Assembly: GCF_027921745.1 (NCBI RefSeq)
Contig: NC_079238.1
Coordinates: forward strand, 5,084,001-5,148,000
DNA: 64,000 nt
From: Schizosaccharomyces osmophilus
Lineage: Eukaryota
Direction of reading: 5' to 3'
Below the pieces are notes generated by a model. The model ran no database searches. It saw only the letters and a list, made by a program, of their open reading frames with translations, and was not told the DNA's origin. Made by a program: the position numbers and the translations under genes. Shown in pieces: positions 41,676 through 56,043 of this stretch (positions are counted from its first letter, which is position 1; each line of letters begins with the position of its first letter).

Positions 41676-41794
41676 AGCCTACAGCATCCCGGATTCCCAT
41701 GTTGTCTCCAACCATAGTACTAACGAGACCCTCAGACGCTTAACTGCAGTGATCGGACGGGAACTGGTGTTTTCGCCTAGGTATGGCCGTAGAC
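41676..41794 (-). rRNA. 5S rRNA gene, copy 1 (119 nt)
   Basis: Reverse complement GTCTACGGCCATACCTAGGCGAAAACACCAGTTCCCGTCCGATCACTGCAGTTAAGCG...GCTGTAGGCT followed by a T-run. Confidence 0.97.
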
Positions 41795-42507
41795 ATTTGT
41801 TATGGTCTGTAAAGATATTTATTACAATAATGATCCAGTCTTTTATTTGGCTTGATGAACTACAAGATCCAATTCAACTCAGTTCTATCTGTGTGTTTTG
41901 TCACGTTGAATGGAGAATGCTTTCATACTGTAAGGATAATATTTGAAAACACACTGTTTTTACTCTTTTCTATTGATTCACATTGTGGTCGCAGGAGCAT
42001 CAGATTGAGTGTATGAGTTTATGGGTTGAAAATGTTACTTAATATAAATTGGGTTCTACTTGAAATTTTTCATGGTCCGTCGACTTGACTCCCAAAGTAA
42101 ACGATAATTCAATGTTTTAAACTACATCAATTGAACCTTCCAACCTGATGATTTGTGCTTTCTATGCTGTGAATGAATTTTACCTCTGGCGGTAATCACT
42201 TTCGTTCTTACAATTAATGAAAGACACGACACAGTTTTGAGTAAAAAACTAGTTAATTACGATGATATTTTCCTCAGAATAATTAAATAATCATTAAAAA
42301 GGGTGTCTATTCATGAAGAAAATGAACGATGCCGTGAAACGAATAAGAAAATTCATGAGAGAGAAATGAGAAAAGCAATCAAAGTCCGCTGGTTTCATCT
42401 GATCTAAGTTTTTGTGGAAGCGAATGCAGGAACTTGGTAGACTGCAATTGACATCGATGTTTCCAAAGAAGGCGCGAAATATAAAGAATGAAAGCACTCG
42501 GTAAAAC

Positions 42508-43637
42508 TTAAACTTCGGCGCTTTGCGCAGCAAGAGGCTGAAGTTCGATTCCTTCGTTCTGAGATACTTGCTCTCCTCGATTGGTTCCTTTTTAATAGGT
42601 TAATAACGCCTCGTGATAGGAAGCATTTACCAAGTGTACATACCGAACATATGATCTAACACATTTCCTATGCCGTTTCCTAACACATTTATGCCGTTTC
42701 CCATATCGACGACTACTAATCTAAGTCGTTCACGCGCATTTGCATTCACTAGAAGAGTTAGAATATTTCGCGGGTGTATGACATACTCGTCAAATAAAGA
42801 AACAAGACAAAGTTAACAAAACAAACAGCATAGAAAAAATTGTTGTTTATCTTTTCGAATCCTGTGAACTTTTTTGCAGCATAATACGCAGTGAAACCGA
42901 GGACATCGAGAAAACACACACATAATACTGAGATACACATAGCTGACAATACGTTTTTGGTTAATCTTCCAGCTTGCGTGAGCCCTTTTTTGGCCTGCTT
43001 GAACCATTCTTTAGGCATTTGAGTCATTGCTAATAGTTAGTAAGTCGCTCAAAGTGAAAGATATCGTTGTTGAATTACCAAGCAGAAACAATACAAAGGC
43101 TGCAACAAAGCCACCAAAAAGCCCCCAAAGGGTTTTTGCATTCACAGAAGCCTTGAAACCAAAAAATAACACAAGAAGAATAGCATAGGCTACAATATAC
43201 CCAATAGTTATAGGCAACAAGATGCCTGCTAAGACTTTCTGGCAAAGCACCACATCCCAACCAGAATTATTAGCGGAATTCTGAGCGGATCCATCAGCCA
43301 TTTCTAAATCGATAAACTTGTTTGAAGCTAATGGATGTATTAGTAACTGTTCTTTCGTTTTGTGAAAGGATAGAGGTTTTCGCCCTGTTTGTTGACACTT
43401 ATCAACAAGGTTATTAGTTTCAAACCCAACAAATAAATAAACAAGCATGATTCTTCCATCACGAGCCGTTCCAACAAGAACACAAAGAATTAACCTCTCT
43501 ATTTTAATTCAACAAATCTTACCTGTATACGGAGGAGGCGTACCATCAAAAGGAGACGACTGACTAACTACCTTTTCATCATTGAGCGTTTTGGAAGAGT
43601 CATCAGAATCTGAAATAGGAGTATATTTGTTTTTCAT
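42508..43637 (-). CDS. wtf: wtf-family meiotic driver (poison/antidote), 5 exons: 43637-43523, 43327-43079, 43029-42787, 42748-42644, 42587-42508; long isoform 263 aa
   Basis: All four GT..AG introns are phase 1 and splice to a stop-free 792-nt CDS; MKNKYTP start, PPPY at the end of exon 1, FIDLEM at the start of exon 2, TM exons, GNGI/GNV repeats in exon 4, AEV* end; 5S-flanked. Confidence 0.88.
42656..42701 (-). repeat. Imperfect 21/24-bp tandem repeat in wtf exon 4 (GNGINVL-GNGIGNVL)
   Basis: ctaacacattt(cct)atgccgtttc occurs twice. Confidence 0.8.
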
Positions 43638-44670
43638 ATTTACAATGGCAATTATAGCCCAAAATAACACCGATAGTTACACTCTAAATGAAATCAACTA
43701 GAATCACCAAGAAAAGTCCGTAAGAACTGGCTCCACTTCTCAAGGATCTGTCAAAAAAAAGGAATTGGACCTTGCTTCAACAATTAAAAGCAAAAGCAAC
43801 TTCTTTTAAAACCAACGATGCGAGTTTGAAAAAATCTTGGTATTGGCTTTTCGCATGTCTCAATTCATAAAGCTGCGACATTATGTCACTGACTGGTCAC
43901 GGTCCTCGTTACGATTATTCAACGTTGGTTTTTTATTGCGATTTTTCTAAATAGTATAATCCAAAAGAATCGTCGTTTATTACAAAAAGTAAACAAAGGA
44001 ACTTTGAGCAAAACAACCATGCTGTTTGCTTAAATTATAAATAGCAGGATTAGAAATGCATATCTTTGTATTGGAAGGTTCTATGACTTTGGCTTAACAG
44101 GTTTCACAGTTTTCATTTCGTTAATTAGATCCTAAACTTGAGAATAATTGGTCCACTGGTATAAAAGCAGAATCCCAATTGAATGAAAATATGATTATTT
44201 ACACACTCAGTCATTTAACAAGAAAGCGAAAGGGAAAGGTTCGACGCTTGTTTTATAATGTTCCCAAGACCCATCAGAAGTGTCATACAATACTTGTGTA
44301 GCTGTAAATATGGAAAATCATAATGAACGACATTTATAGTGACTAGTACATCTTTATTTAATTTATTTTAATCACACGATAGAAACAAACAAAAGCGATT
44401 TCGGACAGGTCATTCATTGTAAATATATATAGAATAGCGTACGCTTACTAGCTATCGGTATGTGTGTCAGAGAGGGTGGATGATAGCTTCACCTCTGCAA
44501 AACTCTAGTCATTGCCATTGTGGACTCGATTCATGTAGTTTGGAGTTGTTACAAAGTAGATTTTATTAAGCTTGTTAGTCGGATCAGATGTGTGCTACTG
44601 TTTTGAAAGTTCTGACATGAATTTGGGTGTTTACTGCCTGTTTGAGTAGGTTTTGAAGGAATTTCAGAAA

Positions 44671-53956: not shown

Positions 53957-55300
53957 TTATGTGCGATTCTGCACTGTTGTTAGGGTATCTTCATACTCCT
54001 TTTCATTTTCACTATTATAAGTCAACTCGTTCTTAGATACGCGCCAAATATAGCATGGTAACAACACCTTAAATCCATACAAGATGGTGTAATACGCATA
54101 AAAGTCTCCCCATTGAAAATAGACAAGGACAATAGGATCCAATGCGATCCTTGCAACGCAGTACCACAGCGATTGTTTTGCTAACTTCATAGAGTACGCC
54201 GATTCCACAGAACCAGCTGACTTAAGAGAATGATTTAAAAGGTAGGTTGCATACATCCAAACCAAGTTGTGGCTCGGCTTACCCAAAAATTGGTTAATTG
54301 CAACTAACCATGGATAATGATGAGTGGTGAGCTGGTTTATAGTGCAAAACATCATTGGAATTGATAAGACAAGAATTCCACAGGAAATTGATTTTCGATC
54401 AATGGGACGCCATACTCCATAACCGAAAGCAATGAGAAATAGTACCAAACGCTGAGCAAATATATCAATAGCCCTTTTTATTTCTGTCAACATTGTATAT
54501 TTTATCCATTGATCAGGACCAAAAAATGTATAATTGTTCAAGTCAATTATAAAATGAATACTTGGTTTCCCTAAAACCGAGCAAATAATAAGTAGCAAAA
54601 GTCCGTAATGTACCGGAAGGAGTTTCGATCGGTGAAGAAGCATCATACACACCCAACAAGTAGCAAGGAAGAGCAAACTAACTGGAAACATCAAAAGAAA
54701 GTAATTGACAGTCCTCTCATGAGGGACTGGGACACCTTCAAACTCTGGATTCATTCTATTAAATTCCGTATACGGCATATTTACAGAGCCATTTTTCAAC
54801 AATGGTCTCGTAGCAAAGCAATACACTCCTCTTGTTTTTTCTTCGATTTCAAGGAATTCGTGTCGTTTACTGGAATTTGCAGGAAAATTGAGTGTGCGTA
54901 CAGAACTTCCATTGTATGTAAACGGGCCAAGAAAAGTGTCTCTCTCCTCAGGGCGAATGTATCGAGACACAGAGAATCCATTTATTTCTTCTGTGGTTTG
55001 CGACAATTGAGAAATATGATGTAGCAGCTTTTCATCATAACCAAGAGCTAATTCCCAATCCTGGAGATTGAAATAAGTACTACCAATCCCACTGTTACCC
55101 TCGTCGTCGATGCTGTTATATTTGGGATGTTGATCATCTGCATTAACCCGTTGGCAAGCAAGCCTGAATTGAAATTTGTCAAAATCATTATTATTGTCGT
55201 CGGAACTTGAAAGAAAACTATCAGAATCTGCTTTAATGAATGACAGTAGTGAGCAACAAATAAAAAATCTAAATAAGTATTTATAGTAGGAATTCCCCAT
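53957..55300 (-). CDS. Signal peptide + luminal domain + multi-TM protein, divergent Ptm1/GOST-like, 447 aa
   Basis: ATG at 55300, signal-like N-terminus, KTRGVYCFAT, NPEFEG, LLPVHY, LIAFGYGVWRP blocks reminiscent of Ptm1/TMEM87-type proteins; 6-7 hydrophobic segments. Confidence 0.68.
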   Translation of the reverse strand: MGNSYYKYLFRFFICCSLLSFIKADSDSFLSSSDDNNNDFDKFQFRLACQRVNADDQHPKYNSIDDEGNSGIGSTYFNLQDWELALGYDEKLLHHISQLSQTTEEINGFSVSRYIRPEERDTFLGPFTYNGSSVRTLNFPANSSKRHEFLEIEEKTRGVYCFATRPLLKNGSVNMPYTEFNRMNPEFEGVPVPHERTVNYFLLMFPVSLLFLATCWVCMMLLHRSKLLPVHYGLLLLIICSVLGKPSIHFIIDLNNYTFFGPDQWIKYTMLTEIKRAIDIFAQRLVLFLIAFGYGVWRPIDRKSISCGILVLSIPMMFCTINQLTTHHYPWLVAINQFLGKPSHNLVWMYATYLLNHSLKSAGSVESAYSMKLAKQSLWYCVARIALDPIVLVYFQWGDFYAYYTILYGFKVLLPCYIWRVSKNELTYNSENEKEYEDTLTTVQNRT

Positions 55301-55924
55301 ACTAGTCTTCCAGTTCAAATTTCGTTTTTATGGAGGAAGTTAATAAGGTAGTAGTGAGGAGAGCTGAAACTTATATATACCTCTGATGAAGAAGGTTTAG
55401 TAAAATCAAATATGAATCACATCCCTTTCTGATATTCCCAATCTGATTTTGCTCTCCTGCCACTTTCGAAACATCATAGGGTCAAGGGAACCTCCAAATA
55501 TTACTGTAAATTATTGCTACAGGATAATATTATCCAGTATAATATAATACTGTGTAAGCAAACACAAACACGAAAATGATGGATTTTTCCTGGATGGTAC
55601 TGAGTTACAAGTTGAAACTTCATAGAATAAATTTTCTTTTACTTAGGAGTCTTAATTTATTATAAAACTAACAACTAATTCCAGGAAATATATTTCAGGT
55701 GGGAAGAATTTCATGACAAAAGTCAGTATACTTGTTCTAACATATTCCATTGCTGGAAAGAGTCAAGTCAAAGGTTATTATTCTCTTTACCTGTTCGTAG
55801 AATCCATAGCGTCTGTCATGACATTCGTTGAAATAATTAATAAAGATTTGTCTCAACTCTGGAAATCACTGAAAAACATCAAGTTTAAAAAATCAAACAT
55901 TAACAGAAAGACGAGAACAAAAAA

Positions 55925-56043
55925 AGCCTACAGCATTCCGGATTCCCATGTTGTCTCCAACCATAGTACTAACGAAACCCTCAGACGCTTAACTGCAGTG
56001 ATCGGACGGGAACTGGTGTTTTCGCCTAGGTGTGGCCGTAGAC
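55925..56043 (-). rRNA. 5S rRNA gene, copy 3 (119 nt, three substitutions vs copies 1 and 2)
   Basis: Full length, T-run terminator, upstream TATA-rich tract; differs at cattccgg, aacgaaacc and ggtgtggcc. Confidence 0.92.

What the first reader, a model, noticed from the sequence alone, without database searches (positions are those of the whole stretch)
41676..56043. Five co-oriented 5S copies divide the accessory region into a cassette-array-like structure
All five 5S sequences (41676, 45839, 52868 pseudo, 53484 pseudo, 55925) are on the minus strand within 14.4 kb, have unrelated flanks, and range from intact to heavily decayed. Each interval has different cargo: wtf+wag; ferric reductase+COMT; about 520 bp with no gene; Ptm1-like protein. 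Inference: serial integration of 5S-bearing circles or ectopic conversion tracts would produce such direct repeats, so 5S-mediated movement may carry metabolic and membrane genes as well as wtf drivers, an integron-like gene-capture array built on a host Pol III gene.
Basis: inference. Interest (0 to 1): 0.75.

Follow-up and report, generated by a model that had tools for sequence, protein, structure and literature searches.

The report
Yeast 5S cluster, not an integron
Five same-direction 5S RNA gene copies in a fission yeast surround an already known spore-killer unit and mostly long-resident genes, not captured cargo, although one membrane gene between two of the copies was likely duplicated elsewhere as a 5S-to-5S block.

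Summary
The five co-oriented 5S copies are real (three intact, two decayed). The locus is the Schizosaccharomyces osmophilus wtf site syntenic with S. octosporus wtf24. Interval 1 is the published 5S-wag-wtf-5S unit, whose spread by 5S recombination was proposed in 2022. The capture-array reading fails for the metabolic genes: ferric reductase and COMT have no near-identical second copy and sit in the same order and spacing, beside the same 5S, in S. octosporus. The Ptm1/GOST-like gene has a positional orthologue near mae2 in S. cryophilus, so it is probably resident too. Co-orientation is the genome norm: 34 of 36 neighbouring 5S pairs under 15 kb apart. One part survives: assembly-graph contigs indicate a second, diverged copy of the GOST-like segment starting at the 3' edge of pseudo-5S 53484 and running into a 5S, a likely 5S-bounded export of a non-wtf gene. 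Precedent exists (centromeric FSARs with hsp16). Verdict: known mechanism, one new instance; no integron.

The parts
39014..39084 (-). tRNA-Gly(GCC), syntenic anchor
   Evidence: S. octosporus tRNA-Gly at the same distance from def1 (649 vs 681 bp)
40346..41203 (+). DUF999-family membrane gene, multi-copy, converging on 5S copy 1 (outside the finding)
   Evidence: Pfam DUF999 E 3.5e-7; many diverged contigs laid on 39164-41155; no room for it at the S. octosporus site (871 vs 3424 bp)
41676..41794 (-). 5S copy 1, intact; downstream end of the 5S-wag-wtf-5S unit
   Evidence: annotated SOMRRNA_47 in the published reference
42508..43637 (-). wtf gene, five exons (115/249/243/105/80 nt), open 263-aa frame, second ATG in exon 2
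   Evidence: splice model; = S. osmophilus wtf20 (CBS 15792 naming), complete synteny with S. octosporus wtf24
44671..45508 (+). wag gene, two exons, divergent from wtf
   Evidence: syntenic with wag5/SOCG_04477
45839..45957 (-). 5S copy 2, intact, ancestral position
   Evidence: S. octosporus 5S at the same place, 844 vs 823 bp from the reductase start
46780..48474 (+). ferric reductase, resident gene
   Evidence: Pfam; 81%/80% orthologues in S. octosporus/S. cryophilus; OG-4745 1:0:1:1:0; species-like tree 99/98
49804..50574 (+). COMT-type O-methyltransferase, resident gene
   Evidence: Pfam; 771-bp CDS next to the reductase in S. octosporus, gap 1358 vs 1330 bp; 86.7% orthologue
51738..52091 (.). 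solo LTR of a Tf-type retrotransposon
   Evidence: TG...CA inverted termini, 354 bp, midpoint equals a listed LTR; multi-copy
52868..52972 (-). 5S copy 3, decayed (81%)
   Evidence: annotated SOMRRNA_49
53484..53597 (-). 5S copy 4, decayed (73%), not in the published 5S table; its 3' edge marks the left end of the two-copy segment
53957..55300 (-). GOST/Ptm1-like seven-transmembrane gene (447 aa) of a small fission-yeast family
   Evidence: SOMG_02333 grouped with S. cryophilus SPOG_02217
53482..56043 (-). segment with an inferred second, diverged copy elsewhere, bounded by 5S copies 4 and 5
   Evidence: contig breaks, alternative contigs and 30 variant rows in 53537-55786; 52935-53511 and 56017-57030 unshared
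55925..56043 (-). 5S copy 5, near intact (97.5%)
59471..61165 (+). malic enzyme mae2, syntenic anchor
   Evidence: S. octosporus EPX75237 and S. cryophilus SPOG_02222

Best explanation
This is an ordinary chromosome-arm cluster of dispersed 5S genes in S. osmophilus: one known 5S-wag-wtf-5S unit plus extra, partly decayed 5S copies lying among resident genes, with host homologous recombination between 5S copies likely having copied the GOST-like segment out to another site. Shown: five minus-strand copies; synteny of def1, tRNA-Gly, wtf, wag, 5S copy 2, reductase, COMT and mae2 with S. octosporus; GOST-like homologue head-to-head with mae2 in S. cryophilus; genome-wide co-orientation of close 5S genes. 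Inferred: 5S-bounded gene conversion or circle re-integration always leaves direct repeats, which explains the orientation; any DNA between two direct 5S copies can occasionally be exported, and the GOST-like segment did so once, with the crossover probably in the 17-nt block that pseudo-5S copy 4 still shares with intact 5S at its 3' end. The exported copy is probably a pseudogene (no second protein found). There is no dedicated recombinase and no ordered capture.
For: Synteny and spacing. One unbroken 7,031-bp contig with 0 differences across 45930-52960. Reductase tree follows the species. Co-orientation 24 of 24 pairs <4.5 kb, 10 of 12 at 4.5-15 kb, 19 of 41 beyond. Second copy: unshared contig ends at 53511 = shared start 53482, the first base of the 17-nt block shared with intact 5S; the same end rule reproduces both contig ends at pseudo-copy 3; alternative contigs at 53600-53683, 54974-55025, 55737-55786 in three runs; a contig rejoins at 55902 toward the 5S; 56017-57030 unshared. 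Prior mechanism: PMC9562144 sections 10, 16; wtf31 presence/absence; FSARs.
Against: The second copy was not located or read; it rests on contigs of one sample that may be the window's source, and the tool warns that depth is no copy number. 54198-54632 is not covered by a second-copy contig, and small extra pieces near 53300-53390 could mean older homology left of copy 4. GOST orthology with SPOG_02217 is only 39% identity, four genes intervene in S. cryophilus, and the tree is unresolved. In S. octosporus the GOST-like gene is missing from this site, which taken alone would fit an insertion. 5S genes around SPOG_02217 were not checked.
Confidence: 0.8

Rival explanations
1. Integron-like capture array: each interval arrived as a 5S-bearing circle, carrying metabolic and membrane genes as well as wtf.
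For: All five copies direct; co-orientation non-random; GOST-like gene absent at the S. octosporus site; its segment has a 5S-bounded second copy.
Against: Reductase+COMT have no near-identical second copy and are syntenic with conserved spacing; vertical tree; GOST-like gene has a positional homologue in S. cryophilus; no recombinase among 23 ORFs scanned; interval 3 has no gene.
Confidence: 0.04
2. The GOST-like cassette was imported here by 5S recombination from the second copy (window = recipient); the S. cryophilus neighbour is a paralogue that happens to be near mae2.
For: Absent at this site in S. octosporus; low identity and unresolved tree; both ends at 5S.
Against: Published orthogroup pairs it with SPOG_02217, which lies head-to-head with mae2 as here; the window copy is the intact one and no second protein was found; the segment carries an old decayed 5S in both copies.
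Confidence: 0.1
3. The apparent second copy is not a 5S-bounded paralogue: it is an ordinary segmental duplication or strain mixture, and the 5S ends are coincidence.
For: One sample only, contigs only; some records filtered; extra small pieces left of copy 4.
Against: Neighbouring contigs (45930-52960, 52935-53511, 56017-57030, 57097-58400) show 0 differences, which a strain mixture would not give; both boundaries fall at 5S sequence.
Confidence: 0.1

Closest known systems
5S rDNA-wag-wtf units of S. octosporus/S. osmophilus (De Carvalho et al. 2022, PMC9562144)
   Same: Interval 1 is one of them (wtf20, syntenic with wtf24); same proposed mechanisms, ectopic conversion or circle integration at 5S.
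   Different: The paper concerns wtf/wag only; the GOST-like segment is a non-driver gene.
Five-S-Associated Repeats (FSARs) and CenA repeats (Tong et al. 2019, PMC6538654; Jia et al. 2023, PMC10085805)
   Same: 0.6-4.2 kb repeats tied to tandem 5S genes, some carrying hsp16 or membrane-protein ORFs: non-wtf genes already known to be multiplied between 5S copies.
   Different: FSARs are centromeric, heterochromatic and many-copy; this segment is among arm genes and appears two-copy.
5S rDNA at rearrangement breakpoints (Acs-Szabo et al. 2018, PMC6168568)
   Same: 12 of 19 octosporus-cryophilus breakpoints lie at 5S genes; def1, reductase and mae2 orthologues have distant locus numbers in S. 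cryophilus.
   Different: Concerns translocations, not gene export.
Bacterial integrons (recalled)
   Same: Superficial: repeats in one direction separating different genes.
   Different: No integrase found, no attC-type sites, genes are resident and not ordered by acquisition.

Membership tests
5S-wag-wtf-5S unit | Five-exon wtf with start codons in exon 1 and exon 2 | tested here: met
5S-wag-wtf-5S unit | wag divergent from wtf, 5S genes in tandem with wtf | tested here: met
5S-wag-wtf-5S unit | Unit including intergenic DNA repeated in the genome | tested here: met
   many 80-99% contigs laid over 41820-45803
5S-wag-wtf-5S unit | FLEX motif in wtf intron 1 | tested here: inconclusive
   exact 7-mer core (recalled) not in intron 1; the paper uses a degenerate scan
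5S-wag-wtf-5S unit | Poison/antidote drive | not testable with these tools
   needs crosses
Integron / cassette array | Site-specific integrase beside the array | tested here: not met
   no recombinase family among 23 large ORFs scanned; small or spliced ORFs not all scanned
Integron / cassette array | Cassettes are acquired, absent from the ancestral site | tested here: not met
   reductase, COMT, wag, wtf syntenic in S. octosporus; GOST-like near mae2 in S. cryophilus
Integron / cassette array | Cassette excision and shuffling among strains | not testable with these tools
   the one run of another sample covered too little
FSAR-type 5S-associated repeat (GOST-like segment) | Repeat bounded by direct 5S copies | tested here: met
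   inferred from contig boundaries; second locus not read
FSAR-type 5S-associated repeat (GOST-like segment) | Centromeric outer-repeat location, arrayed copies | tested here: not met
   lies among single-copy arm genes; place of the second copy unknown

The most novel reading that the evidence does not exclude
Dispersed 5S genes form a general gene-shuttling network on fission-yeast chromosome arms: any gene caught between two direct 5S copies, even a decayed one, can be exported to another 5S site, so the route used by wtf drivers also builds lineage-specific membrane-gene families (the GOST-like gene here, perhaps the DUF999 gene beside copy 1).
Probability: 0.3. Interest if true: 0.55.

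Novelty: new member of a known kind. Interest (0 to 1): 0.3.

Why it matters
If the second copy is confirmed, it is a clean case of a non-driver gene moved on a chromosome arm between two 5S copies, apparently through about 17 nt of identity at a decayed 5S end. That would extend the wtf mobility model to host genes and give a countable test of how much 5S recombination contributes to gene-family growth. The array itself is not a new system.

Tried and rejected
No whole genome was held, so genome-wide tests used run contigs and published tables. No RNA holder listed. Run X5 (another sample) covered 14 of 30 bins thinly and could not test interval presence/absence. Protein searches for a second GOST-like protein at near and shorter lengths found none. 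A 29-base pattern from pseudo-5S copy 4 had no match in metagenome contigs. tblastn of wtf, wag, DUF999 and GOST proteins found no remnants in other intervals, so 'decayed wtf unit' for copies 3-4 has no support. DUF999 and wag proteins are not detectably related. Folding energy does not separate intact from decayed 5S (z -0.5 to -0.9 for all four folded), though the decayed copies lose the 5S fold. GOST-family tree unresolved. Supplement searches by gene name or EPY accession gave nothing; g3005 and g3010 were absent from the cut orthologue list. Earlier findings of this scan: none in three look-ups. Literature searches showed no paper on a 5S-bounded copy of this gene; the held library is limited and most supplement text was cut, so unseen tables (wtf, LTR and strain-comparison tables of PMC10085805; bioRxiv supplements) may bear on it.
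Full report
Observation. Rfam finds three intact 5S genes on the minus strand at 41676, 45839 and 55925. BLASTN and nhmmer with copy 1 add two decayed copies at 52868 (81%) and 53484 (73%), also minus, and nothing else in the window. Flanks are unrelated: 1 of 20 comparisons reached 9 of 200 shuffles. The genes are as described: a five-exon wtf with an open 263-aa frame, a divergent two-exon wag, a ferric reductase and an O-methyltransferase, and a 447-aa protein with no Pfam hit of its own but GOST-type features and fold. 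Interval 2 also holds a 354-bp solo LTR.

Identity of the locus. The window's proteins lie on a contig of the same length as named S. osmophilus proteins, and four of the five 5S copies match rows SOMRRNA_47-50 of the published reference at a constant offset. De Carvalho et al. 2022 (PMC9562144; I read sections 5, 7, 10, 16, passages, and rows of supplements 3, 4, 6, 42) list this wtf as S. osmophilus wtf20, in complete synteny with S. octosporus wtf24 between the reductase and def1. They propose that wtf units spread by ectopic conversion or circle integration at 5S genes. Interval 1 and its mechanism are therefore known.

Is the other cargo captured? In S. octosporus the order is def1, tRNA-Gly, wtf24, wag5, 5S, reductase, a 771-bp CDS, wtf25, malic enzyme. 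Spacings match the window: 5S to reductase 844 vs 823 bp, reductase to COMT 1358 vs 1330 bp. The COMT orthologue is 86.7% identical (its link to the window gene is by order and length). wtf25 is listed as not flanked by 5S. The reductase groups with its S. octosporus and S. cryophilus orthologues (99/98 and 100/100 support), while same-species paralogues are 41-42% identical. In run X1 one contig of 7,031 bp covers 45930-52960 with 0 differences, whereas wtf/wag, DUF999 and LTR regions draw many diverged contigs; only small diverged pieces touch COMT. So reductase+COMT are resident, and 5S copy 2 is at least as old as the split from S. octosporus (about 16 My per PMC10085805).

The GOST-like gene. 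It is missing at this site in S. octosporus. A full HMMER search found 8 proteins, all seven non-self hits being fission-yeast proteins or clustering with one. The best, S. cryophilus SPOG_02217 (39%), is its published orthogroup partner and lies head-to-head with mae2, 8.9 kb away against 4.2 kb here, with four small genes between. That favours residence here and loss in S. octosporus, but the tree is unresolved and I could not check 5S genes at the S. cryophilus site.

A likely 5S-bounded duplication. On 52700-56400, runs X1 and X2 both give an unshared contig 52935-53511, then collapsed or alternative contigs with 30 variant rows between 53537 and 55786, a contig that leaves at 55838 and rejoins at 55902 toward the 5S, and an unshared contig from about 56017. 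With 31-letter words a contig ends 29 bases after a shared stretch begins; this rule reproduces both contig ends at pseudo-copy 3 (52960 and 52935) and puts the shared start at 53482, the first base of the 17-nt block that copy 4 still shares with intact 5S. Lowering the threshold to 80% added no cover left of it. The second copy thus appears to run from the 3' edge of pseudo-5S copy 4 into a 5S. Limits: the runs are one sample that may be the window's source; depth is not a copy count; 54198-54632 has no second-copy contig; small pieces near 53300-53390 are unexplained; the second locus was not read. No second protein was found, so it is probably a pseudogene.

Orientation. From 80 of the roughly 100 annotated 5S genes (22 chr1 rows not read), adjacent pairs are co-oriented in 24 of 24 under 4.5 kb, 10 of 12 at 4.5-15 kb, 4 of 8 at 15-60 kb and 15 of 33 beyond; 31 of 33 under 15 kb without this locus; two other runs of four or five co-oriented copies occur on chr2. 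Pairs in one cluster are not independent. S. octosporus also has four co-oriented copies within 12 kb, one of them labelled 'old'. Short-range co-orientation follows from wtf/wag and CenA units; the 4.5-15 kb excess is not explained here.

Mechanism and rivals. Best reading: host homologous recombination among about 100 dispersed 5S genes moves whatever lies between two direct copies; drivers amplify because they are selected, passengers rarely. This locus is a recipient for wtf/wag and probably a donor for the GOST-like segment (0.8). The integron-like capture array is unlikely (0.04); import of the GOST-like gene (0.1) or a duplication unrelated to 5S (0.1) remain open.

Comparison with what is known. 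Non-wtf genes multiplied between 5S copies are already described at centromeres: FSARs carry hsp16 and membrane-protein ORFs (PMC6538654, passages), CenA repeats are flanked by tandem 5S (PMC10085805, sections 18, 23, 29, first part of 26, supplement rows), wtf31 shows 5S-mediated presence/absence, and 12 of 19 breakpoints lie at 5S genes (PMC6168568, passages). PMC13123837 and bioRxiv 10.64898/2026.01.24.701316 were seen as passages only and add nothing on this locus. Integron features are recalled, not read. Six searches showed no report of the GOST-like copy.

Verdict. Observation confirmed, interpretation partly supported. New member of a known kind; interest 0.3.

Noticed in passing
window 39164-41675: DUF999 gene with about 1.2 kb upstream is multi-copy, lies between tRNA-Gly and 5S copy 1, converges on the 5S like a wag gene, and has no room at the S. 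octosporus site (871 vs 3424 bp). Candidate second Pol III-gene-bounded unit.
   Followed up: partly
window 51738-52091: Solo LTR with TG...CA termini; flanking 5-mers differ at two positions.
   Followed up: yes
window 51116-51737: More multi-copy DNA than the LTR alone seems to explain; no gene or wtf remnant found.
   Followed up: partly
P0003 / P0014: S. cryophilus has two near-identical 448-aa copies of this ferric reductase on different contigs; whether they are 5S-flanked was not checked.
   Followed up: no
window 50574-59471: The COMT-mae2 gap differs among species: wtf25 without 5S in S. octosporus; LTR, three 5S copies and the GOST-like gene here; four small genes plus the GOST-like gene upstream of mae2 in S. 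cryophilus. A turnover hotspot.
   Followed up: partly
window 53484-53597: This decayed 5S is missing from the published 5S table, so decayed copies are undercounted.
   Followed up: yes
window 57020-57087: Long poly(A) run in the intergenic region.
   Followed up: no
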